64,000 bases of DNA, taken from assembly GCA_046964515.1 (NCBI GenBank), contig JBKUYM010000001.1:402842-466841 (forward strand), in the 5' to 3' direction. This DNA comes from Clostridia bacterium (GTDB lineage Bacteria > Bacillota > Clostridia > TANB77 > CAG-508). Positions 7,551 through 52,395 of the stretch are shown here, one piece after another. Below the pieces are notes generated by a model that worked only from the letters and a program-made list of their open reading frames with translations, searched no databases and had not been told where the DNA came from. How positions within the stretch are numbered: position 1 is the stretch's first letter; each line of letters begins with the position of its first letter. Made by a program: the position numbers and the translations under genes.

Positions 7551-7590
7551 AAAGCAATTTTGAGAAAAAATAAATTGCTTTATTTTTATG
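7551..7590 (+). terminator. Intrinsic terminator, copy A of the recurrent downstream motif
   Basis: Hairpin aaagcaattt...aaattgcttt followed by atttttATGaAAACTcATGAATAat. Confidence 0.55.
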
Positions 7591-7684
7591 AAAACTCATG
7601 AATAATGTTTAGAAAGAAATAGAAGAAAACAAAAACAAAAGTAAGTTATAATGAACCATGAAAATAAACAAAGGAGGAAATAAA

Positions 7685-8365
7685 ATGTACAATAAAGGTA
7701 TTACAATGATAGTTTTAGTGATTACCATCATCATACTAATTATCTTGGCAGGGGTATCTTTAAATCTTACAATAGGAGAAAATGGCATCTTTCAGCAGGC
7801 AAAACAAGCCAAAGAAAATATGCAGTTGGCAAAAATAGAAGAAGAAGAGCAACTCAATCGTACTTATGGTGAAATGATAGCACAACTCGGACCAGGGGAA
7901 AAAGAAGAACTAGAAAATAAACTAGATTCCATAAAGAAGGAATATGATGATTTCAAAAATGAGATAAAAGCTATTCTAATACAAAAAGAAATACCAGTAG
8001 GAGAAGAAGCTTCAAATGAAGAAATGATCAATCATTTAAAAGAGTTGTCAGTAGTAAGAGGGTATGTACAACCATATCTTTATGCCATGAGTTGTGGAGA
8101 CAATAGGCAATTAAATTTTGAGTTTCAATTTGATGTACAAGGATATACGACCTTATATATTGAAAGCTATAGAAATGTGGGGGCATTAACCGTTAATTTT
8201 TATGGGATAAAAGAAGATGGAACAAGTACGAAACTAACAACTTCTATTCCTAAAAAAGAAAATCCACTTCAGGTAGAAGCCTATAAAACAATAAAAATGG
8301 AAGGTGTTTGTGCAAGTAATTCTACGTTTTCACAAATTTATGTATATAATGTTACTGTAAAATAA
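7685..8365 (+). CDS. Pilin-like N-terminus family protein P1 with a beta-rich C-terminal domain
   Basis: N-terminus MYNKG|ITMIVLVITIIILIILAGVSLNLTIGENGIFQQAKQAKEN. AAAGGAGGA RBS before the ATG at 7685; the ORF track extends to 7658. Confidence 0.7.
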   Translation: MYNKGITMIVLVITIIILIILAGVSLNLTIGENGIFQQAKQAKENMQLAKIEEEEQLNRTYGEMIAQLGPGEKEELENKLDSIKKEYDDFKNEIKAILIQKEIPVGEEASNEEMINHLKELSVVRGYVQPYLYAMSCGDNRQLNFEFQFDVQGYTTLYIESYRNVGALTVNFYGIKEDGTSTKLTTSIPKKENPLQVEAYKTIKMEGVCASNSTFSQIYVYNVTVK

Positions 8366-12396: not shown

Positions 12397-12900
12397 ATGA
12401 AAATGGCAGGATTTTATGATGAAAGTATATCAAATGGACTTGGATGGAGAGCCGTATTATTTGTAAGTGGATGTCCACATCATTGCCCAGGATGCCATAA
12501 TGCACAAGCACAAGATTATAATTATGGTGAAGAATTTGATAAAACCAAAATCATCAATAAGATTTGTGAAAATTCTATATTAAAAGGTATTACCATTAGT
12601 GGAGGAGAGCCACTTTGTGAAGAAAATTTACCAGAAGTAGTAGATTTTATTAAAGAAGTAAAAAAAGTAAAGCCTAATTTTAATGTATGGTGCTATTCCG
12701 GTTACACATTAGAGCAATTAGAAGCTAGAAAGGATAACATCACAAAAGAAGCTTTAAAACAAATAGATGTACTAGTAGATGGCAGATTTGTACAAGAAAA
12801 GAAAAATCCAACTTTAAAATTTAGAGGCTCAGAAAACCAAAGAATAGTAGATGTACGAAATAGTTTAAAGGAACATAAGATAATAGAGATGGCAATATAG
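12397..12900 (+). CDS. nrdG: Anaerobic ribonucleotide reductase activating protein (radical SAM)
   Basis: GCPHHCPGCHN cluster motif. 167 aa, immediately downstream of nrdD. Confidence 0.85.
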   Translation: MKMAGFYDESISNGLGWRAVLFVSGCPHHCPGCHNAQAQDYNYGEEFDKTKIINKICENSILKGITISGGEPLCEENLPEVVDFIKEVKKVKPNFNVWCYSGYTLEQLEARKDNITKEALKQIDVLVDGRFVQEKKNPTLKFRGSENQRIVDVRNSLKEHKIIEMAI

Positions 12901-12921
12901 AGAGTTATAAAAAAGAATAGG

Positions 12922-12956
12922 AGAACATATCTAAAAAAGATATGTTCTTTTCTATG
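12922..12956 (+). terminator. Intrinsic terminator after nrdG
   Basis: gagaacatatc-taaaaaa-gatatgttct plus ttt. Confidence 0.6.
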
Positions 12957-13079
12957 TAAAGTTGTGTTTATACAAGTAAAATAAAAAACTAAAAAAGATA
13001 AAAGGTATTGTTATAATAAAAACAAGCATAAAATACAATTCGCTCTAGTTAGCAAACTAGAGTAAAAAGGAGACGACTT

Positions 13080-14165
13080 ATGAAAACAGAAAAAGGCATT
13101 ACCTTAATATCTTTAGTTATTATAATTATAATCTTGACTATTTTAGTAGGGATTGGTTTAAATGTAACGATAGGAGCAGATGGAATTATTACAAGAGCCA
13201 AGCAAGCAAAACAAAATATCATTTTAGCAGGAGAAGCAGAAGCCATGCAATTAAATCAACTTTACTATGAATTAGAAACAGGGGGAGAATTAACAGAAGA
13301 TGAAGAAAGTAGTAAAAAAGACGAAATTATTAGCTTACTGCAAAAGCAAGTAGAAGACTTACAAAAACAAGTAGCTGTTTTACAGACAGAAAATACCAAT
13401 TTAAAAAAACAAATACAAGAATTAATGGAACAAATAAACCAGTTACAGCAAGAAATAGTAAATTTGAAAGCACAAATAGCTAGTAAAGATATAGAAATAG
13501 CAGAACTAAAAGAACAAGTAAGTGAAAAAGAATTGAAAATTAAAGAACTACAAAATCAATTAAATAGCTTAAATTCTTTATTATCACAGACAAATAGCAC
13601 AGCTGATAAAATTCTATTTGGCTATAAAGCCTATAGTGAAGGAAAATTATTAACAGGAACTATGGTTAATCGAGGAGCGGTAAGTAGTAACTTAAATGCA
13701 GGGCAAAGTTATACTATACCAGCAGGTTATCACAATGGTTCTGGAAAAATAATAGCCAATAACTTAGCCGATCAGACACAAGCAACTGCCGATGCCTCTC
13801 AAATTATACTAGGATATACTGCCTGGGTAAATGGAAATAAATTAACAGGAACCAATAAAGGATATGAAGAAGGCTATAATGCGGGGAAAAACGAAGGAGA
13901 AGCTAGTAGTATAAACAATAGTAAAGTAAGATTGATTTACTATGGACCAAATAATAACTGGTGTATTGCAGGGATTATGATTCCTAATACAGCTACAAAA
14001 GTGTATTGCTCAAATGGGCAGATAACGATATTTAATACTTATGATGACTTAGGACCCTATGCAATAGCTACTTTAAGTAATGGAGACAATGTAGTAAACT
14101 ATAGAGGAAAGATAGCAGGCGTAAGAGTTAATGGACAAAATAATGCATTATTATGGTTTGAATAA
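13080..14165 (+). CDS. Pilin-like N-terminus family protein P2 with a long coiled-coil and a C-terminal beta-rich domain
   Basis: N-terminus MKTEKG|ITLISLVIIIIILTILVGIGLNVTIGADGIITRAKQAKQN. About 100-aa heptad-rich segment (LQKQVEDLQKQVAVLQTEN...). Shares the EDEESxKKDEIIS motif with P4. GGAG RBS. Confidence 0.7.
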   Translation: MKTEKGITLISLVIIIIILTILVGIGLNVTIGADGIITRAKQAKQNIILAGEAEAMQLNQLYYELETGGELTEDEESSKKDEIISLLQKQVEDLQKQVAVLQTENTNLKKQIQELMEQINQLQQEIVNLKAQIASKDIEIAELKEQVSEKELKIKELQNQLNSLNSLLSQTNSTADKILFGYKAYSEGKLLTGTMVNRGAVSSNLNAGQSYTIPAGYHNGSGKIIANNLADQTQATADASQIILGYTAWVNGNKLTGTNKGYEEGYNAGKNEGEASSINNSKVRLIYYGPNNNWCIAGIMIPNTATKVYCSNGQITIFNTYDDLGPYAIATLSNGDNVVNYRGKIAGVRVNGQNNALLWFE

Positions 14166-25895: not shown

Positions 25896-25950
25896 AAGCA
25901 GGAATAGACAATCTATCCTGTTTTATTTTTATGCAAACTTATGAATATAC
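25896..25950 (+). terminator. Intrinsic terminator plus copy B of the recurrent downstream motif
   Basis: Hairpin caggaataga...tctatcctg, then tttatttttATGCAAACTTATGAATATAcaagataaaaag. Confidence 0.5.
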
Positions 25951-26011: not shown

Positions 26012-26040
26012 TTGACTTTAACCAAAAGGTAATATAAAAT
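26012..26040 (+). promoter_or_regulatory. Conserved family promoter for P3 (TTGACT-17-TAAAAT, tTATAAAAT extended)
   Basis: tattgactttaaccaaaaggtaatataaaat. Near-identical modules lie upstream of P4, P5 and P6. Confidence 0.55.
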
Positions 26041-26106
26041 CTTTAAAGAAAAAAGATTAAAAATTAGAGAAATGGAAAACATAAGAAAAAGGAAAGGGAG
26101 AAAACC

Positions 26107-27831
26107 ATGAAAATAAAACAAAGAGGAATTACTTTAATAGCACTAGTTATTACGATTATTATATTAATTATTTTAGCAGGTGTTAGCATAAATATGGTGA
26201 TAGGAGATAATGGATTAATTCCTAAAGCAACACAGGCAAAAGAAAATATGCAAATAGCTTCAAATGAGGAAGAGGAACAATTAGCAAAATTAACAAATGA
26301 ATTATATAATCCTGAGCAAATAGAAATACGAAAAAATATGCCCAATTCCCCCAAATTAGCAGAAGGAATGCACGCGATTAAGTTTACAAATCCAACTGAA
26401 ATAGATAAAGGAAGAGTAGAAGATACCAATAGTAATGATAGTGACTGGTATAATTATGATGAAAAACGATGGGCTAATAGCCAGACAGAAGATGGAAGTA
26501 TGTGGGTATGGATACCCAGATATGCTTACAGAGTAAACAAAGATAATCAAACCTTTGATATAGTCTTTTTAATAGGAACAACGGATAATTATTATGATGA
26601 GAATGGAAACATACAAACCGCCAAAAGATGTAACAGTGTAGATGAAAATGTAGATACATCTACAGGATATACCGTACATCCAGCTTTTACAGATGAAACA
26701 ATGATAGGTTATAGAAATGGAGGATGGGATAAAGAAATAACAGGAATCTGGGTAGCTAAATTTGAGGCGGGATTTGCTGGTGGAAATAATTTAGCTACTG
26801 TTAAAGAAAGTAGTGTAAGTTATTCACAAAGTACATCTTATGTAGGAGCCGTAGAAAGAGGTCAAAGTAGTAATGGAAATGAAGCTGCTCGTAACTGGTT
26901 GGATGGCATTTATGGAAGTACGAAAACAGCTATAAAATATCCAACCTTCCAAGGAACTACCTACAGTATGAACTATGTTAATCATAATGATGCTTATAAT
27001 ATAGCTAAAGTTATGACAGAAAATGGGAACATATATGGATTAATAGAAAATACAGATTCCCACTTAATGAAAAATAGTGAATGGGGAGTAGTAGCTTACT
27101 TAAGCCAAAGTCAATATGGTTTAAATGGGAGTGATATTGCAATTAATAGTATTAGTTTGAACAGTGGAGGAGCAGCAAGAACGCAGACCGCAGGAAAAAC
27201 AGGAGTAGATAGTGTATATGCTGTAACAGGCTGTACAACAGGGACAAACAATGCAACAGAAAAAGTAACAACGATAGCCAATATTAATAGTACAACAGCT
27301 AACACAGCAGTAGATGGTGTGTACACCTGGAATCAGCTAAATGGAACAAAGGCAAGTAGTAGTGGAACGATTTATGGAATTTATGATTTAAGTGGAGGAA
27401 CTTGGGAAAGAATGGCATCCTATGTGGCTAATGGAAATGAAAACTTAAAAACTTATGGTTCTAGTATAGCTTATGATGGTTCTGTTTTAAAAACAACAAG
27501 TACAAAATATACAACCACTTATCCGTTTGACAGTACAACAGATAATACAGGTATAGTAAGTAATGATACAAATTTAAATACGGCAAGTGTCAATAATTAT
27601 AAGAAAAATACTTTAATTTATGGCGATGGCATCCGCGAGACTTCAGAGATTGGAATTGAAAGTACTAGTTGGTATGGTGGCTATTCACGTTACACAAGCA
27701 TGGCTGGCCCGTTTTCGTTTCGTGGTGGTAACTGGTGGAATGGTTCAAATGCTGGTTTATTTTGCTTTCATTGTCATGCTGGTGATAACAATTATTTTCA
27801 TGGATTCCGTGTGGTACTAGTCATGTCCTAG
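26107..27831 (+). CDS. Pilin-like N-terminus family protein P3 with an FGE-sulfatase (C-type-lectin-fold) C-terminal domain
   Basis: N-terminus MKIKQRG|ITLIALVITIIILIILAGVSINMVIGDNGLIPKATQAKEN. C-terminal motifs SEWGVVAY, GGTWER, RGGNWWNG...GFRVVL, which resemble the FGE-sulfatase/DUF323 signature RGGSW..R...GFR. Paralog of P5. Confidence 0.7.
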   Translation: MKIKQRGITLIALVITIIILIILAGVSINMVIGDNGLIPKATQAKENMQIASNEEEEQLAKLTNELYNPEQIEIRKNMPNSPKLAEGMHAIKFTNPTEIDKGRVEDTNSNDSDWYNYDEKRWANSQTEDGSMWVWIPRYAYRVNKDNQTFDIVFLIGTTDNYYDENGNIQTAKRCNSVDENVDTSTGYTVHPAFTDETMIGYRNGGWDKEITGIWVAKFEAGFAGGNNLATVKESSVSYSQSTSYVGAVERGQSSNGNEAARNWLDGIYGSTKTAIKYPTFQGTTYSMNYVNHNDAYNIAKVMTENGNIYGLIENTDSHLMKNSEWGVVAYLSQSQYGLNGSDIAINSISLNSGGAARTQTAGKTGVDSVYAVTGCTTGTNNATEKVTTIANINSTTANTAVDGVYTWNQLNGTKASSSGTIYGIYDLSGGTWERMASYVANGNENLKTYGSSIAYDGSVLKTTSTKYTTTYPFDSTTDNTGIVSNDTNLNTASVNNYKKNTLIYGDGIRETSEIGIESTSWYGGYSRYTSMAGPFSFRGGNWWNGSNAGLFCFHCHAGDNNYFHGFRVVLVMS

Positions 27832-27894: not shown

Positions 27895-27950
27895 CAAATT
27901 AGAAATAATAGAATTCTAGTTTGTTTTTTTATGCAAACTTGTGAATATTA
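27895..27950 (+). terminator. Intrinsic terminator plus copy C of the recurrent motif
   Basis: caaattagaa...ttctagtttg hairpin, then tttttttATGCAAACTTGTGAATATtag. Confidence 0.5.
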
Positions 27951-28299: not shown

Positions 28300-29007
28300 A
28301 TGTATAATATATTAATTTGTGATGATGATAAGGAAATTGTAAAAGCAATAGAAATCTATTTAAGTAAAGAGGGATACCATATTTTAAAAGCTTATAATGG
28401 AAAACAAGCGTTAGAAATTATGAAGGAACAAGAAATACATTTATTAATTTTAGATATTATGATGCCAGAAATGGATGGAATGACAGTAGCAAATCAGGTT
28501 AGAAAAAGTAGGAAAATACCAATTATCATGTTATCTGCAAAATCAGAAGATTATGATAAAATAGCAGGATTAAATGAAGGAGCAGATGACTATATAACAA
28601 AACCATTTAATCCATTAGAATTAATAGCAAGAGTAAATTCTCAAATTAGAAGATATACTTCTTTAGGTTCTATAGCACAAAATGAAAAAGAAAATCAAAA
28701 TATTTATCAAACAGGAGAATTACGCATAGATGATAATACAAAACAAGTAGTAATAGAAGGAAAAGAAATAAAATTAACACCAACAGAGTACAATATCTTG
28801 AAATTCCTTATAAAAAATAAAGGAAAAGTATATTCAATAGAGCAGATTTATGAAAATGTATGGGAAGATGAAGCTTATGGAGCAGAAAATCTAATAGCCG
28901 TACATATAAGACACATTAGAGAAAAGATAGAAATTAATCCAAGAGACCCAAAATATTTAAAAGTTATTTGGGGGATTGGCTATAAAATTGAAAAAATAGA
29001 GGAATAA
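28300..29007 (+). CDS. OmpR-family two-component response regulator
   Basis: Receiver domain (LICDDD..., D51-like LLILDIMMP, K at ITKPF). C-terminal winged-helix trans_reg_C (..YLKVIWGIGYKI). Confidence 0.85.
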   Translation: MYNILICDDDKEIVKAIEIYLSKEGYHILKAYNGKQALEIMKEQEIHLLILDIMMPEMDGMTVANQVRKSRKIPIIMLSAKSEDYDKIAGLNEGADDYITKPFNPLELIARVNSQIRRYTSLGSIAQNEKENQNIYQTGELRIDDNTKQVVIEGKEIKLTPTEYNILKFLIKNKGKVYSIEQIYENVWEDEAYGAENLIAVHIRHIREKIEINPRDPKYLKVIWGIGYKIEKIEE

Positions 29008-29046
29008 ATAGACTACAAGAGAAATAAAAAGAAGGAGGAAAAATAG

Positions 29047-31077
29047 ATGAAACGAATAAAAGAATCTGCTTTTTTAAAATTAGTATGCTATATAGCTATA
29101 CCTATTTTAGTACTAACACTTCTAATGAGCAGTGTATATCTTTCCTACCAAAGACAAAATGAAGATAATATGCAAGTAAAAGATTATTATCAAACAGATA
29201 CTTTTGTAAATCAATATTATATTGTATTACAAAACATTTATGATTATTTATTATACCCCATAGAAGAAGAAACCGAAAATGAAATCTCCTATTATTATTC
29301 TTACTTTTACGATTACTCTCTTATTAAAGATGGAGAAGAAAAAATATATTATCAAAATGGTGGAAGGATGGGGAATACCACAAAATATTTTGATTATGTT
29401 ATCATAGATAAACAAGAAAATACAATTTATATGAATTTAAGAAATGATGCCTATCAAGAAGAAATCGAAAATATAAAACAAAGACCATATCATTGGTATT
29501 ATGCAGGAACGGATATACAAACAGACATGGCCAAAATGACAGAGCAAAATTTGAAATATGACTATAGTTTAGAATCGATAGACAAGTTAAAAAATAATCG
29601 TTTTGATATCTATTTAGTTTTTAACCAAGATAAAGTAGAAAGTGGCAATGATATCTATATTCAAAAAGTTTTCTATGATTCTATGCTAACGCTAAAAAAT
29701 GTACCAATGTATTTAATTCCTATCTGTGTGGTTTTATTGTTAATAATGGGTATTTATCTTATATGGGCAATAGGTCATCAAAAAGGGATAAAAGGAATTG
29801 CTTTAAATTCTTTAGACAAAACACCTTATGAATTACTTTGCTTTATAGCTTTTTTAGTCTTATTTTTAGTAACAATGGTGGGTACGACATTAAGTAGTGT
29901 AACACGAAATTTCTTAACACTATCTTTTTGGACAATTGATTATTTTATAGGATATATTATCTGTGCAGTAATTGGCGTTACAACAATAAAAAGAATAAAA
30001 GCGAAAGTATTTTTTAGGGAACTATGGATTTCTAAAATAATGCGAAGCATTATAAGACAATGGAAAAAGATAGAAAAAGCATTTAGAGAGCATCCTGCAA
30101 CTACCAAAAAAGTTATCATTGTATATTGGGCGTTTATTTTGATTTCTGTTATTTTAATTGCTTTACAAGGAAGTTTCTTCATGTTTTTAGTCTTAATTGC
30201 TTTTTGGATATGGTGTTTTTACAAAATTTTTAAATATATGAAACACATCGGTCGTATAAAAGAATCTTTAAAAGAGATTTATGAAGGAAAAGAAAATGTA
30301 GTAATAGATACAGAAGACTTAGAAAAAGGCTTGAAAGAAATGGCGGAATATATCAATGATATAGCAAGAGGATTTTCTAATGCTATAGAAAAAAGTTTAA
30401 AAAGTGAAAGAATGAAAACAGAATTGATTACCAATGTATCTCATGATATTAAGACACCACTAACATCTATTATAAACTATGTAGATTTATTAAAAAAAGA
30501 AGAAATGCCAAATGATAGGGCAAGAGAATACTTGGAGGTATTGGATAATAAATCACAAAGACTAAAACGATTAACAGAAGATTTAGTAGAAGCATCAAAA
30601 GCTTCTTCTGGAAATATAAAATTAAATATAGAAAAATTAGATGTAAAAGAATTGATGAAACAAATTTCAGGGGAATTTGAAGATAAATTTCAAGAAAGAA
30701 AATTAGAATTGAATTTATCTGTGCCAGAAGAGGATTGCATAATACAAGCAGATAGTCGTTATTTATATAGAGTAATTGAGAATATGTATGCTAATGTTGT
30801 AAAATATGCTTTAGAAGCTTCTAGAGTTTATGTGGATATAAAATCTGAAGCAAATGTATTACAAATTCAAATTAAAAATGTTTCCAAAGAGAGACTAAAT
30901 ATTACAGCAGATGAATTAATGCAAAGATTTGTAAGAGGAGATAGTTCTAGAAATACAGAAGGAAGCGGTTTAGGACTTTCTATAGCACAAAGTTTAACAG
31001 AATTACAAAAAGGAAGGTTCCAAATCTATATAGATGGAGATTTATTTAAAGTGGTTATAACCTTTGATAAAAGCTAA
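29047..31077 (+). CDS. Sensor histidine kinase with a large N-terminal sensor and multi-TM region
   Basis: HisKA H-box SHDIKTPLTSI. HATPase_c N, G1 and G2 boxes (GSGLGLSIA). Directly downstream of the response regulator. Confidence 0.85.
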   Translation: MKRIKESAFLKLVCYIAIPILVLTLLMSSVYLSYQRQNEDNMQVKDYYQTDTFVNQYYIVLQNIYDYLLYPIEEETENEISYYYSYFYDYSLIKDGEEKIYYQNGGRMGNTTKYFDYVIIDKQENTIYMNLRNDAYQEEIENIKQRPYHWYYAGTDIQTDMAKMTEQNLKYDYSLESIDKLKNNRFDIYLVFNQDKVESGNDIYIQKVFYDSMLTLKNVPMYLIPICVVLLLIMGIYLIWAIGHQKGIKGIALNSLDKTPYELLCFIAFLVLFLVTMVGTTLSSVTRNFLTLSFWTIDYFIGYIICAVIGVTTIKRIKAKVFFRELWISKIMRSIIRQWKKIEKAFREHPATTKKVIIVYWAFILISVILIALQGSFFMFLVLIAFWIWCFYKIFKYMKHIGRIKESLKEIYEGKENVVIDTEDLEKGLKEMAEYINDIARGFSNAIEKSLKSERMKTELITNVSHDIKTPLTSIINYVDLLKKEEMPNDRAREYLEVLDNKSQRLKRLTEDLVEASKASSGNIKLNIEKLDVKELMKQISGEFEDKFQERKLELNLSVPEEDCIIQADSRYLYRVIENMYANVVKYALEASRVYVDIKSEANVLQIQIKNVSKERLNITADELMQRFVRGDSSRNTEGSGLGLSIAQSLTELQKGRFQIYIDGDLFKVVITFDKS

Positions 31078-34085: not shown

Positions 34086-34820
34086 TTATATACCAAATAC
34101 AGTTATAATATTATAAGCATTAGGAACCACGTTCGTACGATTTGCATATAAAGTAACCGTTTTTCCTTTTAAATTTTTTGTATCATATTTTACTAAATAT
34201 ACTTTATTAGAAAAAGTAGAATAATCTATATAATCAAGTGGTGTAGCATCTACCGAAAGTTTTAATTGTGAGGTATAACTAGAAGTAAACCAATTTCCAT
34301 TTGTTAGTAAATAAAGGGTATCTTTGGTTACCGCGAAATCAACAGAGGTAGTGTTGGAACTAAAATTATAATTGGCATAATAAACAGATAAATCACCGCC
34401 AGCTATATTTTGTATGTTTTGAGCCATAACTTGAGCACTATCAGTGTAGGCAGTAGAAATTCCCTTATTTGTAATTGCTTGTGCAATAGTTGTTCTAAAT
34501 TGTGTGAATTCTGTTTGAAGGGTAAGAAATTTATTTTGTAAATCTGTTAAATCTTTTTGTAGATTAGAGATAATTTCATCCTTTTTATGGGATTCTTCAT
34601 CTTCTGCAATTTCACCATTAGATACTAACTCATCATAAAGTTGGTTTAATGCAATAGCCTCTGTTTGACTAGCCAAAGTGATATTTTCTTTTGCCTGTTT
34701 TGCTTTTGTGATAATGCCATTATCGCCAACTAATGTATTGATACTTACACCTGCTAAAATAATTAATATAATAATGGTTATTACTAAACTGACTAAGGTA
34801 ATACCAGATTTTTCTCTCAT
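34086..34820 (-). CDS. Pilin-like N-terminus family protein P4 with a coiled-coil and a beta-rich C-terminal domain
   Basis: N-terminus MREKSG|ITLVSLVITIIILIILAGVSINTLVGDNGIITKAKQAKEN. Its first ~45 aa and 5' flank are ~95% nt-identical to P6. Shares the EDEESHKKDEIIS motif with P2. Confidence 0.7.
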   Translation of the reverse strand: MREKSGITLVSLVITIIILIILAGVSINTLVGDNGIITKAKQAKENITLASQTEAIALNQLYDELVSNGEIAEDEESHKKDEIISNLQKDLTDLQNKFLTLQTEFTQFRTTIAQAITNKGISTAYTDSAQVMAQNIQNIAGGDLSVYYANYNFSSNTTSVDFAVTKDTLYLLTNGNWFTSSYTSQLKLSVDATPLDYIDYSTFSNKVYLVKYDTKNLKGKTVTLYANRTNVVPNAYNIITVFGI

Positions 34821-34962
34821 TTATCATCCCTCTTTTTCTTATGTTTTCCCGTTTTTTTAATTTAATACTTTTCTTAGATAATTCTATATTACCAATCGGT
34901 TAATGTCAATGCCTTATTTTTGGATATTTTTCTTAATTTTAGATGCGATTTCTATAAAAATA
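34735..34962 (-). repeat. Inverted repeat arm 1: conserved promoter, leader and 5' coding module of the family; partner at 52168-52395
   Basis: The reverse complement aligns to 52168-52395 at about 95% identity over about 230 nt. Confidence 0.7.
34881..34909 (-). promoter_or_regulatory. Conserved family promoter for P4 (minus strand)
   Basis: On the minus strand it reads ttgacattaaccgattggtaatatagaat. Confidence 0.55.
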
Positions 34963-35439
34963 GAATATAGAAAAGAAGGTGGAAAGACAATACACTTTAT
35001 GTAATGTTTAGAACTATATAATATATATCCATAGAAAATGACAGATACCGTTAATGAAAGATTGAATGAATTATGGCAACAGCAGATTTTTCAAAAGATT
35101 TATTCAAATAAATTCAAGAATTGATTTTAAGGTGATGATTTATCACAAAAAGTAAAGAGTATGGAAATAAATATAAGAAGTGTAATGTAGATATTTAAGA
35201 AGTTGTAATGAAAATATTAAAATAAATAGACTTTAAAAATGCATTTAATACAGTGTTTTTTATAAATATTAAGATAAAGGCTCCATTGAGAATGAAAAGT
35301 TATCTCAAATTGGAACTCTTTTTAACATCTTTCTGATTGATAGACATATCAATGATTATGACTATTTGTATTCACAAGATAACATAAAAAGAATTGAAGA
35401 AATAAAGAATGAAAAGGAAAATAGAAAAATAAAAGAAGA

Positions 35440-35468
35440 TTGACATTAACCAAAAGGTAATATAAAAT
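35440..35468 (+). promoter_or_regulatory. Conserved family promoter for P5
   Basis: gattgacattaaccaaaaggtaatataaaat, followed by the ggaaaacataagaaaaaaagaaggggag leader. Confidence 0.55.
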
Positions 35469-35526
35469 TATCGTATAAGAAAATATAAAAATGGAAAACA
35501 TAAGAAAAAAAGAAGGGGAGATAAGC

Positions 35527-37257
35527 ATGAGAGAAAAAGTAAACCAAAAGGGTATTACATTAATAGCATTAGTGATTACAATTATCGTATTAATCATTTT
35601 AGCAGGTGTAGCCATTAATACTTTAGTAGGAGAGAATGGGATTATTACACAAGCACAAAGAGCGAAAAATGAAACCGCACAAGGGCAAAAAGAAGAAGCA
35701 GGAGGATTAGCTAGTTTAGAACAACAAATAGATGAGGCAACTGGAAAAACGTATATAACAGAAAAGGGCGTTAATAAACCACGATTAGCAACAGGAATGA
35801 AAGCCATCAAATTTACAAATCCAAGTGAAAGTGCTAAAGGAGAAGCACAAGACAGTAGCGAAAATGATACGGAATGGTATGATTATAATAGTAAAAAGTG
35901 GGCGAATAGCCAGACAGAAGATGGAAGTATGTGGGTATGGATACCTAGATATGCGTATAAAGTAAATGATAATCAAACCTTTGATATAAAGTTTTTAATA
36001 GGAACAACGGATAATTATTATGATGAAAATGGACAAATACAAACAGCCAAAAGATGTAACAGTGTAGATGAAAATGTAGATACAACAACAGGATATACGG
36101 TGCATCCAGCTTTTACAGATGAAACAGCGATAAGTTATAGAAATGGAGGATGGGATAAAGAGCTAACTGGAATATGGGTAGCAAAATTCGAAGCAGGATA
36201 TGCTAGTGGAAATAATAGCGCAACAGTTAAGGCAAGTAGTGTTAGCTATTCACAAAACACTTCTAGTGTAAGAGGAGTAGAAAGAGGACAAAGTACGGAA
36301 GGGAGTGAATTGTCTCGTAACTGGTTAGATGGAATATATGGAAGTACAAATACAGCTATAAAATATCCAACCTTCCAAGGAACCACGTATAGTATGAATT
36401 ATATCAATCAAAATGATGCTTATAATATAGCCAAGGCTATGACAGAGAGTGGAAATATTTATGGATTAACTGCAAGTGCAGACTCCCACTTAATGAAAAA
36501 TAGTGAATGGGGTGCAGTAGCATACTTAAGTCAAAGTAAATATGGATTAAATGGAACAGATATTGCGATTAATAATGTTAACTTAAACAGTGGAGGAGTA
36601 GCAAGAACGCAGACAGCAGGAAAAAGTGGTGTAGATAGTGTATATGCTATAACCGGATGTACAACAGGAACAAATAATGGAGCGGAAAAAGTAACAACAA
36701 TTGCCAATATTAATGGTACAACAGCTAATACAGCAGTAGACGGTGTATATACATGGAATCAGTTAAGTGGAACAAAGGCTAGTTCATCAGGTACTATATA
36801 TGGAATTTATGATTTAAGCGGAGGACTATGGGAAAGAACAGCAGCTTATGTAGCTAATGAAAATGAAAATTTAAAAACTTATGGTTCTAGTATAGCTTAT
36901 GATGGTTCTACTTTAAAAACAACAAGTACAAAATATACAACAGCTTATCCATTTGATAGCACTATAGATAATACTAGTATTATAAATAATGATACAAATT
37001 TAAATACGGCAAGTGCCAACAATTATAAGAAAGATACTTCAATCTATGGCGACGGTATCCAAGAGACTTCAATAACCGGAACTGGAAATACTAGTTGGTA
37101 TGGTGACTACTCGTATTACACAGGCTTAAATAATCCATTCTCACTTCGTGGCGGTTATTTCTGGCATGGATCAGGTGCTGGTTTGTTCTATTTCCATCGC
37201 AGTCCTGGTGGCAGCGGTTACGGTGGCGGGTTCCGCACGGTGCTGGCTGTGTCCTAG
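35527..37257 (+). CDS. Pilin-like N-terminus family protein P5 with an FGE-sulfatase (C-type-lectin-fold) C-terminal domain
   Basis: N-terminus MREKVNQKG|ITLIALVITIIVLIILAGVAINTLVGENGIITQAQRAKNE. C-terminal motifs SEWGAVAY, GGLWER, RGGYFWHG...GFRTVL. Internal Met after a GAAGGGGAG RBS; the ORF track extends to 35491. About 75% identity to P3. Confidence 0.7.
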   Translation: MREKVNQKGITLIALVITIIVLIILAGVAINTLVGENGIITQAQRAKNETAQGQKEEAGGLASLEQQIDEATGKTYITEKGVNKPRLATGMKAIKFTNPSESAKGEAQDSSENDTEWYDYNSKKWANSQTEDGSMWVWIPRYAYKVNDNQTFDIKFLIGTTDNYYDENGQIQTAKRCNSVDENVDTTTGYTVHPAFTDETAISYRNGGWDKELTGIWVAKFEAGYASGNNSATVKASSVSYSQNTSSVRGVERGQSTEGSELSRNWLDGIYGSTNTAIKYPTFQGTTYSMNYINQNDAYNIAKAMTESGNIYGLTASADSHLMKNSEWGAVAYLSQSKYGLNGTDIAINNVNLNSGGVARTQTAGKSGVDSVYAITGCTTGTNNGAEKVTTIANINGTTANTAVDGVYTWNQLSGTKASSSGTIYGIYDLSGGLWERTAAYVANENENLKTYGSSIAYDGSTLKTTSTKYTTAYPFDSTIDNTSIINNDTNLNTASANNYKKDTSIYGDGIQETSITGTGNTSWYGDYSYYTGLNNPFSLRGGYFWHGSGAGLFYFHRSPGGSGYGGGFRTVLAVS

Positions 37258-41888: not shown

Positions 41889-41905
41889 GAAAAGAGTTGT
41901 CGTAT

Positions 41906-42226
41906 ATGGATACTTCTTTTGTACCAAGAATTGTTGTAGAAGCAAATAACTATAGAAAACCTAGGATAGTGGATTATAGAGAGATAATAGAAGAGGTACA
42001 AATCCTGCTTATGAAAGAAGGATACCAAGTTGCCTTTAATGCAGTAGAAATCTATAATAGATTAACGCAAAAATTTTCATTTAGAGAAGATATGCGCAAA
42101 GAAGAAATCTTGGATACTATAAGAATGTGCCTAAAAAGGTTAGAAAAACAACAGTTTCTAAAAAGAAATGAAGAAAATCAATATGTTATAAAAAGGCAGA
42201 GAGAAGAAAGTCTTATAGAAATGTAA
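41906..42226 (+). CDS. Small hypothetical protein encoded between rpoB and rpoC
   Basis: 107-109-aa ORF filling the rpoB-rpoC gap. Sense strand. GGAAAAGAG RBS-like element. No recognisable motif. Confidence 0.4.
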   Translation: MDTSFVPRIVVEANNYRKPRIVDYREIIEEVQILLMKEGYQVAFNAVEIYNRLTQKFSFREDMRKEEILDTIRMCLKRLEKQQFLKRNEENQYVIKRQREESLIEM

Positions 42227-45300: not shown

Positions 45301-45899
45301 TAAAAGAGGGAGATACTGTTACAGCAGGTCAACCACTTACAGAGGGATCTGTTAATCCAAATGAATTATTATTAATTAAAGGACCGGCTGGTGTATATAA
45401 TTACTTAGTACAGGAAGTACAAAAAGTATATAGAAACCAAGGTGTTGATATTAATGATAAGCATATTGAAGTTATTGGAAGACAGATGTTAAAGAAGATA
45501 AGAGTAGAAGATAATGGGGATACTACTTTATTTGCAGGTTCTTTAGTGGATATGTATGAATTTGAAGCAATTAATAATCAGGCAATTCAAGAAGGTAAAC
45601 GTCCTGCAACAGGAAAACGAGTATTATTAGGTATTACAAAAGCTTCTCTTGCAACAGATAGTTTCTTATCTGCAGCTTCTTTCCAAGAAACAACAAGAGT
45701 GTTAACAGAAGCCGCTATTAAAGGAAAAGTAGATGAATTAATTGGCTTAAAAGAAAATGTGATTATTGGTAAATTAATTCCTGCAGGTACTGGTCTTGCT
45801 AAATATAAAAATACCCATATTAGTACAGAAGAAGATTCTGTAGAAGCACAAACGGAGGATAAGCAAGATACTGAAAAAATAGAAGAAGATGTAGGATAA
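42339..45899 (+). CDS. rpoC: DNA-directed RNA polymerase subunit beta'
   Basis: The N-terminus [57 protein letters not shown] is near-identical to B. subtilis RpoC. NADFDGD catalytic motif. GTG start. Confidence 0.9.
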
Positions 45900-45913
45900 T
45901 AAGGTAAAAAGTA

Positions 45914-45950
45914 AGATAGGAGAGATTTATTCTTCTATCTTATTTTTCAT
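45914..45950 (+). terminator. Intrinsic terminator after rpoC
   Basis: aagatag-gagagatttattctt-ctatctt plus attttt. Confidence 0.5.
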
Positions 45951-46007
45951 TTACAAAATAAAACAAGAAAGGTATAATAAGAAAAAAGAAAGGATAGGAG
46001 AAAAAAT

Positions 46008-47297
46008 ATGAAATTATATATAAAAAATGCCACTTTGTTATCTATGGATGAGAAAAGAGAAAAAGTAGAAGAAAATATGGATATCGAAATTTCTGGGAAC
46101 CAGATAATAAAAATAGGTAAAAACCTAACCGGTGAAGAAAATGCAAAAATGATAGATGCTACAGGAAAGGTGGTAATGCCAGGACTCATTAATACCCATG
46201 CACATATTCCGATGAGTATTTTTAGAGAAACCGTGGATGGACTTTCTCTACAGGAATGGTTACAAGATAAAATATGGCCGATGGAAGATCAATTGACCAA
46301 AGAAGATATTTACCAAGCTTCTAAGTTGTCTTTTATGGAAATGATTCGAACAGGAACTACCACTATTAATGATATGTATTTTATGACAGAATCTATTATA
46401 GAAGCTGCTATACAAGCAGGAATTAGATTACAAACGACTAGAACATTGACTTCTGTTGCAGGAGAAGAAGATGGACAAAAGAAATTAGAGGAATTTAAAG
46501 AATTATTAGAAAAATATAGAAATCAGAATAGTCGCATTACTTTTAATGCAGGTATCCATGGATTATACACTTCTAGTAGAGAATATGTGGATAAATGTAT
46601 TGCTTTTGCAAAAGAAGAAGCATTAAGGATACATATGCATTTTTGTGAAAATACAAAAGAAGTAGAAGATATTAAACAAGCTTATGGAGAAAGTCCAGTT
46701 AGTGTTATAGAAAAGGACTTTAAAGGAATCGATGTGTTATTAGCACATTGTGTAAAATTAAATAAAGAAGAAATTGCTAGGATGGCAACATTACCGATTC
46801 ATATTTCTCATTGTCCAGTTAGTAATTTAAAATTAGGCTGTGGGGTAGCCAATATTGCACAAATGGTAAATGCAGGTATGAATGTTAGTTTAGGCACAGA
46901 TGGGCAAGGAAGTGGTAGTAATTTAGATTTATTTGAAACTATGAAATATACAGCTTTATTGCAAAAAGGGATACAAGAAGATGCGAAACAATTACCTGCT
47001 TATCAAGTTATACAAATGGCAACAATGAATGGTGCTAAAGCATTAGGAATGGAAAGTCAAATAGGTAGTATTGAAGAAGGTAAGCTTGCAGATATGATCA
47101 TTTTAAATTTAGATACCTGTGTAATGCAACCAGTTAATGATTTATGTTCAGACATTGTATATAATGCAAAGGGAGAAAATGTAGAGACTACCATAGTTAA
47201 TGGGGAAATCTTAATGGAAAATAAACAATTAAGAGGCATAGAAGGGCAAGAAGTTTATGAGAAGTGTAGAAGCATTATAGAAAGAATAAAACAATAA
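46008..47297 (+). CDS. mtaD: Amidohydrolase of the 5-methylthioadenosine/S-adenosylhomocysteine deaminase type
   Basis: MPGLINTHAHIPMS metal-binding motif and Amidohydro_1 architecture with HxH...H...H..D. 429 aa. Confidence 0.7.
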   Translation: MKLYIKNATLLSMDEKREKVEENMDIEISGNQIIKIGKNLTGEENAKMIDATGKVVMPGLINTHAHIPMSIFRETVDGLSLQEWLQDKIWPMEDQLTKEDIYQASKLSFMEMIRTGTTTINDMYFMTESIIEAAIQAGIRLQTTRTLTSVAGEEDGQKKLEEFKELLEKYRNQNSRITFNAGIHGLYTSSREYVDKCIAFAKEEALRIHMHFCENTKEVEDIKQAYGESPVSVIEKDFKGIDVLLAHCVKLNKEEIARMATLPIHISHCPVSNLKLGCGVANIAQMVNAGMNVSLGTDGQGSGSNLDLFETMKYTALLQKGIQEDAKQLPAYQVIQMATMNGAKALGMESQIGSIEEGKLADMIILNLDTCVMQPVNDLCSDIVYNAKGENVETTIVNGEILMENKQLRGIEGQEVYEKCRSIIERIKQ

Positions 47298-47438
47298 AGT
47301 GTAAACAAATTTAATTACATGAAAAGATCTAGTATACCAAAACATCTATATTAGGTCTTACTTTTTTATTCCATATGTAATAAGAAAATTATCAGGTATG
47401 GAAAATATAAAGAATAGAAAGAAAGGTAAAAAGAGAAA

Positions 47439-47720
47439 ATGAATTACCAAATAAAAGAAGAAAATCAAAAATTTTTATTAATCGAAGAAGAAAAAGAAAT
47501 TGGAAATTTAAAGTTTATAAAAGATGTAGAAGGTGATTTTATAATTGAATCTATCTTCATAGAAGAAGCCTATAGAGGAGAAGGATATGCTCAAATTATT
47601 TTTAATGAATTTATTGAAAAGGTAAAAAAAGAGAAACGTAAAGTAATACCAATTTGTACATATGCACAAGCACAATTTCGAAAAAGAAAAAGTATACAAT
47701 ACTTATTAAAAAATGTATAA
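47439..47720 (+). CDS. Small GNAT-like N-acetyltransferase-fold protein (Acetyltransf_CG type)
   Basis: 93 aa. The ...IESIFIEEAYRGEGYAQ...ICTYA... pattern is typical of the short GNAT-like family. Confidence 0.5.
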   Translation: MNYQIKEENQKFLLIEEEKEIGNLKFIKDVEGDFIIESIFIEEAYRGEGYAQIIFNEFIEKVKKEKRKVIPICTYAQAQFRKRKSIQYLLKNV

Positions 47721-47808: not shown

Positions 47809-47840
47809 AGAGTTTGTAAATAGTATAAAAGGAGAATATT

Positions 47841-52047: not shown

Positions 52048-52167
52048 GGACGTGCTTGTATTGTTTAGATAGTTATAAAAATGAAAGAGTCAGTGAATAT
52101 AGTTGCTGACTCTTTGTTTATAGAATTACATAAAGTATCTTGCTTTTCTATCTCTTTTTTAATATTC

Positions 52168-52395
52168 TTTTTTATAGAAATCGCATCTAAAAATAAGAAA
52201 GATATTCAAAAATAAGGCATTGACATTAACCGATTGGTAATATAAAATTATCTAAGAAAAGTATTAAATTAAAAAAACGGGAAAACATAAGAAAAAGAGG
52301 GATGATAAATGAGAGAAAAATCTGGTATTACCTTAGTCAGTTTAGTAATAACCATTATTGTATTACTGATTTTAGCAGGAATTAGTATCAATACA
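52168..52395 (+). repeat. Inverted repeat arm 2; partner at 34735-34962
   Basis: About 95% identity to the reverse complement of arm 1, covering promoter, leader and the first ~85 nt of the CDS. Confidence 0.7.
52220..52248 (+). promoter_or_regulatory. Conserved family promoter for P6
   Basis: cattgacattaaccgattggtaatataaaat. Confidence 0.55.

What the first reader, a model, noticed from the sequence alone, without database searches (positions are those of the whole stretch)
26012..26106. Shared promoter and purine-rich leader cassette in front of four family members
Upstream of P3 (26012-26106), P4 (34821-34909, minus strand), P5 (about 35440-35526) and P6 (52220-52308) lies the same ~95-nt module. 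It reads TTGACAtTAACC(a/g)AttGGTAATATAaAAT (a -35 TTGACA and an extended -10), then 25-30 variable nt, then GGAAAACATAAGAAAAAG(A/G)(A/G)GGGAG just before the start codon. Non-homologous flanks carry identical regulatory DNA, which suggests the genes are co-regulated as a regulon, or that a promoter-plus-signal-sequence cassette is being copied in front of different passenger domains. In P3 and P5 the leader contains an upstream ATG: a 12-codon uORF overlapping the start in P3, and in-frame in P5.
Basis: seen in the sequence. Interest (0 to 1): 0.65.

Follow-up and report, generated by a model that had tools for sequence, protein, structure and literature searches.

The report
Shared promoter-operator-leader of pilin-like family
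Four genes for pilin-like surface proteins in this uncultured gut Clostridia genome carry the same ~90-base control region (a standard promoter with a repressor-type palindrome inside it, plus an almost invariant purine-rich leader), and relatives repeat it in front of dozens of such genes, so the family is probably switched as a group.

Summary
The 29-nt box TTGAC(A/T)TTAACC-N4-GGTAATATA(A/G)AAT and the leader box GGAAAACATAAGAAAAA(G/A) sit at the stated coordinates in front of four of the seven pilin-like genes in the window; chance predicts none.

It is the conserved 5' control region of a lineage-specific multigene family. Related MAGs carry about 17 copies each. In the DNA I hold, the box lies in front of 0 of 303 other ORFs.

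Selection, not only recent copying, maintains it. Leader-box pairwise identity is 0.95, against 0.54 at third codon positions of the adjacent coding sequence and about 0.5 in the flanks.

The promoter is TTGACA-17-TAAAAT, with no TG extension. Its spacer holds an imperfect palindrome, TTAACC-N4-GGTAA: arms 1 change in 154 sites, centre plus -35 position six 19 in 70. In more distant relatives a ~130-aa cI-like XRE repressor gene lies divergently beside this promoter, and two prophage-like switch regions use the same box. My best reading is co-repression of the family by such a repressor (inferred; no such gene in this window).

The leader is single-stranded and matches no Rfam family. Its function is unknown. 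The uORF is not conserved.

Moderately interesting: a new member of known kinds.

The parts
26012..26106 (+). P3 module. -35 TTGACT 26012-26017; operator-like TTAACCAAAAGGTAA 26018-26032; -10 TAAAAT 26035-26040; variable 26041-26073; leader box GGAAAACATAAGAAAAAG 26074-26091; SD GGGAG 26096-26100; ATG 26107.
34821..34909 (-). P4 module. -35 TTGACA 34909-34904; operator-like TTAACCGATTGGTAA; -10 TAGAAT ending at 34881; leader box 34849-34832; ATG 34820.
35440..35526 (+). P5 module. -35 TTGACA 35440-35445; operator-like TTAACCAAAAGGTAA; -10 TAAAAT ending at 35468; leader box 35493-35510 (1 mismatch); ATG 35527. The upstream in-frame ATG at 35491 is probably not the start.
52220..52308 (+). P6 module. 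-35 TTGACA; operator-like TTAACCGATTGGTAA; -10 TAAAAT ending at 52248; leader box 52280-52297; ATG 52309.
26107..27831 (+). P3 gene, 574 aa. Pilin-like N-terminus (KQRG|ITLIALVITIIILIILAG) plus a large C-terminal region of unknown fold.
34086..34820 (-). P4 gene, 244 aa. Same N-terminal 65 aa as P6; the remainder is unrelated.
35527..37257 (+). P5 gene, 576 aa. Full-length paralog of P3 (74% aa identity).
52309..53130 (+). P6 gene, 273 aa. Pilin-like N-terminus with its own C-terminal part.
34682..35005 (.). Left arm of the extended P4/P6 inverted repeat: 295 nt at 91% plus a 49-nt extension at 78%. It covers the upstream DNA, the module and the first ~46 codons.
   Evidence: I1, I5
52125..52447 (.). 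Right arm of the extended P4/P6 inverted repeat. About 17 kb lie between the arms, including rpoB and rpoC.
25928..25947 (+). Upstream element TTTATGCAAACTTATGAATA, 64 nt before the P3 -35 and directly after the terminator of the preceding gene. A second copy at 27928-27947 lies behind the P3 terminator.
7685..8365 (+). Family member without the module (different upstream region).
13080..14165 (+). Family member without the module. It lies after nrdD and nrdG, at the place where a relative (L048) has the XRE gene.
58295..60196 (+). Family member without the module (633 aa, internal tandem repeats).

Best explanation
The ~90-nt element is the common 5' control region of a lineage-specific, heavily duplicated family of pilin-like proteins. 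These share a prepilin-like N-terminus on varied C-terminal domains. The host is an uncultured, 30% G+C, spore-forming Clostridia lineage.

Step 1 (shown by sequence): a near-consensus sigma-A promoter, TTGACA-17 nt-TAAAAT.

Step 2 (inferred from comparative data): the 17-nt spacer holds an imperfect palindrome, TTAACC-N4-GGTAA. It acts as the operator of a small cI-like XRE-family repressor of about 130 aa (HTH_3 plus a helical C-terminus). Binding between the -35 and -10 would exclude RNA polymerase, so all promoters that carry the site are shut or opened together.

Step 3 (shown): transcription yields a 55-65-nt unstructured, purine-only leader. Its core, (A/T)TGGAAAACATAAGAAAA, lies 11-16 nt upstream of the start codon and next to an extended Shine-Dalgarno (AGAAAGGGAG type). 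It is held almost invariant by selection at the nucleotide level.

Step 4 (inferred, weakest): the core works on the mRNA, as an accessible single-stranded platform that sets translation or stability, or binds a trans-acting factor. It is not a peptide-coding or structured element.

The module spreads with the first 50-65 codons when family genes duplicate, both in tandem arrays and as dispersed copies. That is why it now sits on unrelated C-terminal domains.
For: Reality and specificity:
- Four copies in the window, none expected by chance.
- A scan of 185,579 species genomes with only the promoter box gave 43 matches in 42 loci. About 17 each came from two MAGs. Nearly all are followed by the leader box, which was not in the pattern, and by a K-x-KG(V/I)TLI gene.
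- In all held DNA the box or leader lies in front of 54 of 75 unique family genes. Of 303 other ORFs, 0 have the box and 1 has the leader.

Selection:
- Over 31 unique copies the pairwise identity is 0.95 for the leader box. It is 0.50-0.63 for flanking UTR, 0.51 upstream of the -35, and 0.54 for third codon positions of the adjoining, highly conserved CDS.

Promoter:
- 10-11 of 12 consensus positions, with a 17-nt spacer.

Operator:
- In 14 copies retrieved without using the box, the palindrome arms show 1 change in 154 sites. The centre plus -35 position six show 19 in 70 (Fisher p = 6e-10; the copies are related, so this is descriptive).
- L049 has the perfect palindrome TTAACCAAAAGGTTAA.

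Repressor link:
- The XRE gene lies divergently next to a box-driven pilin-like gene in L002, L032, L041 and L027.
- Starting independently from the XRE protein, the same holds in 3 of 7 further species contexts: L047/48, L049/50 and L051/52.
- The XRE upstream region has a conserved array of TTACC/GGTAA half-sites in 11 species, 9.1 per kb against 1.7 per kb background.
- L057 keeps the palindrome beside the XRE gene although the pilin gene and the -35 are gone.
- Two prophage-like switch regions (L006, L034) use the same box plus a second copy of the palindrome. L034 shows the full set: integrase, ImmA-like protease, cI-like repressor, cro-like gene and antirepressor. Its repressor has the same recognition helix, VTISRYLNG.
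- The HTH resembles 434 cI, P22 C2 and ImmR and temperate Firmicutes phage repressors.

Leader as RNA:
- Its distance to the ATG is fixed. The distance from promoter box to leader falls mainly into two classes (23 and 31 nt).
- An AGTAT(G/A)AA block keeps a fixed 20 nt to the leader.
- MFE z-score is -0.25. Paired probability is 0.20, against 0.60 in the CDS.
- No Rfam match.
Against: - No XRE-130 gene is in the 64-kb window, nor in about 270 kb held from the multi-copy MAGs. At the two spots where relatives have it (rpoC-gdpP in L057; nrdG-pilin in L048) the window has none. The repressor may lie elsewhere in the genome or may be lost.
- Four of the seven independently retrieved XRE loci have no adjacent pilin-like gene.
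- There is no binding, TSS or expression data.
- Gene conversion among paralogs could inflate conservation, although it would not explain the patchy pattern.
- The 20 fixed positions of the genome scan bias the large sample. Only the 14-copy subset is unbiased for the box.
- Nothing identifies what reads the leader box. A DNA-level role cannot be excluded.
Confidence: 0.6

Rival explanations
1. Descent only. The identity is left over from recent duplication or gene conversion of the 5' end of paralogs. It is an ordinary promoter with no dedicated operator and no special leader function.
For: P4 and P6 share 295 nt at 91%, including about 65 nt of non-functional-looking DNA upstream of the -35, or about 95 nt with the 78% extension I5. 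P3 and P5 are full-length paralogs. L061 is a tandem array of six near-identical units with near-identical spacers. About a third to a half of family members lack the module and presumably work without it.
Against: Conservation is patchy on a scale of a few bases. Leader box 0.95 and operator arms about 0.99, against 0.5-0.6 in the stretch between them, 0.51 upstream, and 0.54 at synonymous sites of the adjacent CDS. The boxes persist across species whose variable parts are unalignable. The palindrome recurs beside an XRE gene even without a pilin gene.
Confidence: 0.15
2. The leader box is coding. It would be a regulatory uORF (MENIRKRKG...) coupled to the main start through ATGA, or the real, longer N-terminus of the prepilin.
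For: ATG (17) or TTG (8) precedes GAAAAC in 25 of 31 unique copies. Of these, 12 are in frame with the main ORF. Seven end in a TGA that overlaps the main ATG, as in P3.
Against: Six of 31 copies, including P4 and P6, have no start codon there. The frame to the main ATG is 0/1/2 in 13/5/13 copies. No Shine-Dalgarno precedes the upstream codon, whereas a good one precedes the annotated ATG. All 16 core positions are near-invariant with no third-position relaxation, unlike the real CDS (pos1 0.84, pos2 0.95, pos3 0.54).
Confidence: 0.07
3. The conserved AGTAT...GGAAAACATAAG block is a DNA element. It would be a second promoter for an alternative (for example sporulation) sigma factor, with CATA as part of the -10. 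Alternatively it is the binding site of a second transcription factor such as the OmpR-type regulator encoded next to P3.
For: AGTAT and the leader box keep a fixed 20-nt distance while their distance to the sigma-A box varies by 8 nt. The organism has SpoIIE. An OmpR-type response regulator and kinase lie just downstream of P3 (28300-31077) and also downstream of the L062 array. The leader contains GAAAA-type direct repeats about 10 nt apart (sequence).
Against: The match to sigma-E or sigma-K consensus, recalled from B. subtilis literature, is poor. The gap between ATA and CATA is 20 nt instead of 16-18, and the final T of the -10 is absent. The element is strictly purine on one strand and abuts the SD at a fixed distance from the ATG, which fits an mRNA role better. 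Leader-only copies without the promoter box exist (L046 3087, L062 7916, L039), but nothing shows they are expressed.
Confidence: 0.1
4. The repeats are substrates of programmed recombination, as in a shufflon, vsa-like or invertible-promoter system. Such a system would swap promoters or N-termini among family genes to vary surface proteins.
For: Inverted copies exist: P4 versus P5 are 530 nt apart, and P4 versus P6 form a 295-nt repeat 17 kb apart. The layout of conserved 5' end plus variable 3' end is that of several variation systems (own knowledge).
Against: Every copy has its own complete promoter, leader, start codon and open reading frame, so exchange would change nothing. No recombinase, integrase or transposase is in the window. 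The P4/P6 arms enclose rpoB and rpoC. Family genes are scattered among housekeeping genes.
Confidence: 0.04

Closest known systems
Operators of lambdoid cI-type (XRE-family) repressors: 434 cI, P22 C2, ICEBs1 ImmR and cI-like repressors of temperate Firmicutes phages
   Same: The candidate site is a 15-16-bp inverted repeat with conserved outer arms and a free 4-bp centre, placed inside a strong promoter. Several related half-sites lie in the divergent regulatory region of the repressor gene. The candidate repressor's HTH matches these proteins. Two prophage-like switch regions use the very same box.
   Different: Here the rightward promoter drives chromosomal pilin-like genes instead of cro or lytic genes. 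It is multiplied to dozens of unlinked copies per genome. No repressor gene is next to the copies in this window, and binding is untested.
Multigene surface-protein families with a conserved 5' expression region, e.g. Mycoplasma hyorhinis vlp and M. pulmonis vsa (own knowledge)
   Same: Promoter, leader and signal-peptide-coding 5' end are highly conserved. The 3' parts are divergent, and there are many copies per small genome.
   Different: There is no homopolymer tract of hypermutable length in the promoter spacer, no silent cassettes and no recombinase. All copies look independently expressible. The N-terminus is pilin-like rather than a lipoprotein signal.
CsrA-controlled leaders such as B. 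subtilis hag (own knowledge)
   Same: An unstructured leader carries two GGA motifs about 18-22 nt apart, the second within the Shine-Dalgarno.
   Different: The whole 16-nt core, not just the GGA motifs, is invariant. No csrA was found in the held DNA (not conclusive). There are no hairpins presenting the GGA.
Type IV pilin / pseudopilin class III signal peptides (Pfam N_methyl PF07963)
   Same: A short basic leader ends in G, followed by a ~21-residue hydrophobic helix. N_methyl hits have E 2.5e-4 to 6.6e-3. One homolog is annotated by NCBI as a 'type II secretion system protein'.
   Different: Scores are just under the Pfam gathering cut-off (16.4-20.9 against 21.2 bits). Position +5 is Ala or Ser instead of Glu, and +1 is Ile or Val rather than Phe. 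No pilus machinery or prepilin peptidase is in the window. The C-terminal parts are large and unrelated to pilin folds as far as can be seen.

Membership tests
Sigma-A (sigma-70 type) promoter | -35 TTGACA-like and -10 TATAAT-like hexamers separated by 16-18 nt | tested here: met
   TTGAC(A/T)-17-TA(A/G)AAT, 10-11 of 12 positions, in all four copies. The same holds in all retrieved copies.
Sigma-A (sigma-70 type) promoter | Transcription start 5-9 nt downstream of the -10 | not testable with these tools
   No transcript data are available. This needs 5'-RACE, dRNA-seq or metatranscriptomes.
Extended -10 promoter (TGn) | TG one base upstream of the -10 hexamer | tested here: not met
   The sequence before TAAAAT is GGTAATA. 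The scan reports 'TG_before_second: no'.
cI/XRE-type repressor operator | Inverted repeat with conserved arms and a non-conserved centre, overlapping core promoter elements | tested here: met
   TTAACC-N4-GGTAA fills the spacer. Arms show 1 change in 154 sites; the centre plus -35 position six show 19 in 70, in 14 copies retrieved independently of the box. L049 has a perfect palindrome.
cI/XRE-type repressor operator | Cognate repressor gene linked to the operator | tested here: inconclusive
   Linked divergently in L002, L032, L041, L027, L047, L049, L051, L006 and L034. Absent from the window and from the held loci of the multi-copy MAGs.
cI/XRE-type repressor operator | Sequence-specific binding of the repressor and repression of transcription | not testable with these tools
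   Needs EMSA or footprinting and reporter assays.
Riboswitch or other structured cis-regulatory RNA (Rfam) | Match to a curated covariance model, or a conserved secondary structure | tested here: not met
   No Rfam hit at gathering score in the window. None at E<=10 in 34700-35650. MFE z-score is -0.25 over 31 copies. Leader paired probability is 0.20.
Regulatory uORF / leader peptide | Conserved start codon, reading frame and peptide, with codon-like conservation | tested here: not met
   The start codon is absent in 6 of 31 copies. Frames are 13/5/13. Conservation is uniform at the nucleotide level.
Invertible promoter / shufflon-type variation system | Site-specific recombinase nearby, and inverted repeats that bracket a promoter or gene segments so that inversion changes expression | tested here: not met
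   Pfam scans of the window's ORFs found no recombinase. Each copy is a complete expression unit.
Type IV pilin-like (class III signal peptide) proteins | N_methyl motif: G at -1, hydrophobic helix, Glu at +5 | tested here: inconclusive
   PF07963 scores 16.4-20.9 bits against a 21.2 cut-off. G at -1 and the helix are present. Position +5 is A or S, not E.
CsrA-bound leader | Two or more GGA motifs, one overlapping the SD, and a csrA gene in the genome | tested here: inconclusive
   GGA motifs are present at the conserved spacing. No csrA is in the ~550 kb held, but no complete genome could be searched.

The most novel reading that the evidence does not exclude
A phage-type immunity switch has been domesticated: a cI-like repressor plus a P_R-like promoter with its operator. 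The promoter has been multiplied in front of dozens of pilin-like surface-protein genes, so one repressor flips the cell's whole surface repertoire on or off, possibly bistably. The invariant purine-rich leader core would be a new, unstructured cis-regulatory RNA motif read by a dedicated post-transcriptional factor that adds a second, family-wide layer of control.
Probability: 0.15. Interest if true: 0.7.

Novelty: new member of a known kind. Interest (0 to 1): 0.45.

Why it matters
These uncultured, small-genome gut Clostridia devote a striking share of their coding capacity to pilin-like proteins with varied C-terminal domains: 7 genes in this 64-kb window, and arrays of six in relatives. 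A shared promoter, operator and leader is a concrete, testable handle on how that repertoire is controlled. It also predicts a specific regulator, a ~130-aa cI-like XRE protein, and a specific binding site. The leader core is a well-defined candidate for a new 5'UTR control element: 16 nt at about 95% identity, against 54% at synonymous sites. Practically, the two boxes are good markers for finding family members and for annotating their true start codons in MAGs.

Tried and rejected
- Rfam: nothing at gathering score across the window, and nothing at E<=10 around P4/P5.
- RNA folding of 31 leaders: no structure.
- Pfam and NCBIfam on the seven family proteins: only coiled-coil noise and a sub-threshold N_methyl hit.
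- PDB sequence search with P3: no hit.
- AlphaFold2 on a 30-sequence P3 alignment: pLDDT 42, unusable, so no fold search was run.
- Search for the XRE-130 regulator in the window and the held loci of the multi-copy MAGs: none found.
- A second XRE type (109 aa) lies beside some family genes. It has its own, different palindrome (TTCTAGAA), so I did not link it to the box.
- JGI metagenome scan with the leader pattern: a single hit. IMG/VR scan with the box: none.
- One protein look-up (P0001) was not on record.
- Literature searches by topic and by sequence strings found nothing relevant.
- Sporulation-sigma, sigma-H, sigma-D, CodY, CcpA and Spo0A consensus motifs were compared by eye with the leader and rejected as poor matches (own knowledge of the consensus sequences).
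- CsrA: no gene in the held DNA, but absence from the genome cannot be shown.
- Recombinase or shufflon idea: no recombinase in the window.
Full report
**1. The observation**

Reading the four regions and aligning them confirms the module.
- The 29-nt box TTGAC(A/T)TTAACC(A/G)A(A/T)(A/T)GGTAATATA(A/G)AAT occurs at 26012(+), 34909(-), 35440(+) and 52220(+). It occurs nowhere else in the window. None of 100 dinucleotide shuffles gave any match.
- The leader box GGAAAACATAAGAAAAA(G/A) occurs at 26074(+), 34849(-), 35493(+) and 52280(+).
- Each module ends at the ATG of a gene whose product starts with a short basic stretch, then G, then ITL(I/V)(A/S)LVITIII(L/V)(I/L)ILAG.

The window is ordinary chromosome at 30.5% G+C. 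It carries metK, nrdDG, spoIIE, rpoB, rpoC, gdpP, rplI, dnaB, tilS, ftsH and a PBP. It has no recombinase, no transposase and no pilus machinery.

It holds seven genes of the family, not six. Those at 7685, 13080 and 58295 have unrelated upstream regions.

The flanks are only partly non-homologous.
- P3 and P5 are paralogs over their full length, at 74% aa identity.
- P4 and P6 are homologous only in the first 65 residues. At the DNA level they share a 295-nt, 91% inverted repeat. It begins about 65 nt upstream of the -35 (about 95 nt if the 49-nt, 78% pair I5 is added) and ends about 46 codons into the gene.

**2. What it is**

The closest homologs of P3 come from uncultured 'Clostridia bacterium' MAGs, with many paralogs per genome. 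One partial protein of MAG ACLTEH is 100% identical to P3.

I scanned one genome per species (185,579 genomes) with the promoter box alone, TTGACNTTAACCNNNNGGTAATATA.
- This returned 43 matches in 42 loci, about 17 each in two MAGs.
- Although the leader was not part of the pattern, nearly all matches are followed, mostly 23 or 31 nt later, by GGAAAACATAAGAAAAAG. A Shine-Dalgarno, an ATG and a K-x-KG(V/I)TLIALVIT gene come next.
- The products range from about 200 to about 577 aa.

Loci fetched through the protein rather than the DNA pattern show the same thing.
- L061 is a tandem array of six 577-aa paralogs. Each has its own terminator and its own module.
- L043, L046 and L062 carry further copies.
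- The single JGI metagenome hit to the leader pattern also has the box in front.

Across all held DNA, 54 of 75 unique family genes have the box, the leader or both. Of 303 other ORFs of at least 150 aa, none has the box and one has the leader motif.

So the element is the family-specific 5' control region of a multigene family. It travels together with the first 50-65 codons.

**3. Selection rather than mere recency**

For 31 unique copies I measured mean pairwise identity by segment.

| Segment | Pairwise identity |
|---|---|
| 30 nt upstream of the -35 | 0.51 |
| 12 nt after the box | 0.53 |
| 12 nt before the leader box | 0.63 |
| Leader box | 0.95 (13 of 18 positions invariant) |
| 12 nt before the ATG | 0.50 |
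| First 35 codons from the conserved G, codon positions 1 / 2 / 3 | 0.84 / 0.95 / 0.54 |

The leader core is therefore much better conserved than synonymous sites of the neighbouring, strongly constrained coding sequence. It is also much better conserved than the DNA on either side. Uniform gene conversion or recent duplication would not produce that pattern.

The large sample cannot be used to judge the promoter box, because 20 of its positions were fixed by the search. I therefore used the 14 copies obtained independently of it.
- The eleven arm positions (TTAACC, GGTAA) show 1 change in 154 sites.
- The four central positions plus the sixth base of the -35 show 19 changes in 70 sites.
- Fisher p = 6e-10. 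This is descriptive only, because the copies are related.

**4. The promoter and its palindrome**

The hexamers are TTGAC(A/T) and TA(A/G)AAT, separated by 17 nt. There is no TG motif.

The spacer is filled by TTAACC-N4-GGTAA, an imperfect inverted repeat. In L049 it is the perfect palindrome TTAACCAAAAGGTTAA. Promoter spacers are not normally conserved in sequence. Fixed arms around a free centre is the signature of a dimeric helix-turn-helix protein.

The genome scan also gave a lead to that protein. In the more distant MAGs (L002, L032, L041, L027) the box-driven pilin-like gene is preceded, divergently, by a gene for a ~130-aa XRE-family protein. Its sequence runs MQ.IFIKRL.ELMEE...GTTNVTISRY.NG.R.P.IE.

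I then started again from a profile of this protein and fetched seven further species-level contexts.
- In three (L047/48, L049/50, L051/52) it again sits divergently beside a pilin-like gene whose promoter has the box.
- In four (L053/54, L055/56, L057, L058/59) the neighbour is another gene.
- L057 still keeps ATTACCTTTTGGTTAAT at the usual distance, with the -35 destroyed. L058 keeps a one-mismatch version.

In all 11 species the region upstream of the XRE gene has a conserved layout.
- The palindrome lies at about -100 in eight of the eleven species; L053 keeps only its left arm and L055 has none.
- Two TATAAT-N-TTGGTAA elements lie at about -64 (all eleven species) and about -20.
- TTACC/GGTAA half-sites occur at 9.1 per kb, against 1.7 per kb in the surrounding loci.

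Two other hits of the box, L006 and L034, are prophage-like switch regions.
- L034 encodes an integrase, an ImmA-like protease and a cI-like repressor with the same recognition helix (VTISRYLNG).
- Its box promoter drives a cro-like gene and an antirepressor.
- A second copy of the palindrome lies just downstream of the promoter.
- L006 has the box, a second palindrome copy and a cro-like gene, with the start of a divergent XRE-130-like gene at the end of the locus.

The XRE HTH matches 434 cI, P22 C2 and ImmR in the PDB. It also matches cI-like repressors of many temperate Firmicutes phages at 30-37% identity.

My reading is that the family promoter is a P_R-like promoter with a cI-type operator. 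A chromosomal cI-like repressor would shut all copies together.

What is shown:
- the palindrome and its conservation pattern;
- the repeated physical linkage to the XRE gene in relatives;
- its use in phage-like switches.

What is inferred:
- binding and repression;
- that the repressor exists in this genome.

The repressor gene is not in the window. It is also missing at the two syntenic places where relatives have it: rpoC-gdpP in L057 and nrdG-pilin in L048.

**5. The leader**

Assuming a start 5-9 nt after the -10, the 5'UTR is about 55-65 nt long.

Its conserved part is AGTAT(G/A)AA, then 12-13 variable nt, then (A/T)TGGAAAACATAAGAAAA, then an extended Shine-Dalgarno of the AGAAAGGGAG type, then 6-9 nt, then the ATG.
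- The distance from AGTAT to the leader core is fixed at 20 nt.
- The core ends 11-16 nt before the ATG in all but one copy (7 nt).
- The distance from promoter box to leader falls mainly into two classes, 23 and 31 nt.

The leader is purine-only and unstructured.
- MFE z-score is -0.25.
- Paired probability is 0.20, against 0.60 in the coding region.
- It matches nothing in Rfam.

These features favour a role on the mRNA: a single-stranded platform next to the ribosome-binding site. It could serve as a translation or stability determinant, or as the site of a trans-acting factor.
- Two GGA motifs about 20 nt apart, one in the SD, recall CsrA sites.
- The AGA-AAA-AGA-AAG run recalls Hfq (ARN)n sites (own knowledge).
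- Neither idea explains why all 16 positions are fixed, and neither factor could be looked for in a complete genome.

A DNA-level role cannot be excluded. Candidates are a second promoter or the site of the OmpR-type regulator encoded next to P3.

The leader is separable from the promoter.
- Some copies keep the leader but have lost the box (L046 3087, L062 7916, L039).
- Another subfamily, with a different promoter, has a related ACATAGGAAAAAAGGAG leader.

**6. The uORF**

P3 has a 12-codon uORF ending in the TGA that overlaps the ATG. P5 has an in-frame upstream ATG.

Across 31 unique copies:
- the codon is ATG in 17, TTG in 8, and not a start codon in 6, including P4 and P6;
- the frame relative to the main ATG is 0, 1 or 2 in 13, 5 and 13 copies;
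- no SD precedes it, and the core shows no codon periodicity in its conservation.

It is best seen as a by-product of the (A/T)TGGAAAAC motif.

**7. Comparison with known systems, and verdict**

The promoter-operator part works like a lambdoid or ICE immunity operator. It is most likely related to such operators by descent. The architecture of conserved 5' region plus variable 3' region resembles surface-protein multigene families such as the mycoplasma vlp genes. It lacks their hypermutable tracts, silent cassettes and recombinases.

The proteins are pilin-like only in a loose sense.
- N_methyl scores lie just below the Pfam cut-off.
- Position +5 is not Glu.
- No pilus genes are nearby.
- Their C-terminal domains remain unknown.

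I found no literature on the family or on either motif.

The thing is a new member of known kinds: a family-wide promoter with a repressor-type operator, plus a strongly selected but functionally unassigned 5'UTR core. The leader core and the possible domestication of a phage-type switch are the parts worth an experiment.

Noticed in passing
window 25928-25947, 27928-27947, 7585-7604; degenerate inverted copy 35369-35390; L061 and about 15 other loci: A third conserved block, TTTATGCAAACTT(A/G)T(A/G)AA(C/T)A, lies directly after terminator T-runs. In 20 of 24 copies it sits 64-75 nt upstream of a promoter box. It brackets P3 on both sides and also follows the last unit of the L061 array. Its GCAAACT is complementary to AGTTTGC of the conserved family terminator stem. 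It could be the boundary of the duplicated unit or a further regulatory site.
   Followed up: partly
window 34682-35005 and 52125-52447: The P4 and P6 5' regions form a ~300-nt, 91% inverted repeat. It encloses 17 kb that contain P5, rpoB, rpoC and gdpP. Homologous recombination between the arms would invert that segment. Long reads could test this.
   Followed up: partly
L002, L032, L041 (XRE gene divergent from the pilin-like gene): In three different species the ~130-aa XRE gene carries a +1 frameshift at the same codon (…EEQNLT|GLELS…). Most homologs are intact at 128-133 aa. This could be a shared pseudogene, a programmed frameshift or a common assembly error.
   Followed up: no
L029 ~1300-1656, L062 5160-5489, L024 1758-2093, L019 5004-5546: A second, different XRE-type gene (109 aa, MAIDY.VIGERLKKARK…) also lies divergently beside pilin-like genes. 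It has its own palindrome (GGAATTCTTCTAGAATAT) in its upstream region. It may control another promoter class of the family.
   Followed up: partly
L043 14799 and 15649: Another subfamily (MKLEKGITLVSLV…) has its own conserved upstream region, AATAGGATACATAAGAAATATTCCA…TACAAATTGTACAATAAAG. One of the two copies has a leader related to the box studied here (ACATAGGAAAAAAGGAG). The family therefore uses several promoter types.
   Followed up: no
L046 3087; L062 7916; L039 1497: These copies keep the leader box but have lost the promoter box. L046 and L062 show a ~50-nt deletion relative to the window's P5 upstream region. They may be silenced or read-through-dependent paralogs.
   Followed up: partly
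window 28300-31077; L062 13851-16083: An OmpR-type response regulator and a histidine kinase lie just downstream of P3. A similar pair lies downstream of the three-gene array in a close relative. The link is possibly coincidental.
   Followed up: no
window 41897-42226; L057 10173-10466: A small conserved ORF (109 aa; 97 aa in L057) with no Pfam match sits between rpoB and rpoC in both genomes.
   Followed up: no
window 59537-59764 and 59968-60147: The module-less family gene at 58295-60196 contains internal tandem repeats: 57-nt units, and four 45-nt units each starting TGTGG (Cys-Gly).
   Followed up: no
window 12900-13080 and 45899-47841 compared with L048 and L057: The XRE-130 gene occupies different chromosomal places in different relatives: nrdG-pilin, rpoC-gdpP, next to peptidase U32, and next to fabG. 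It is absent from the two corresponding places in the window, so it seems to move or be lost often.
   Followed up: partly
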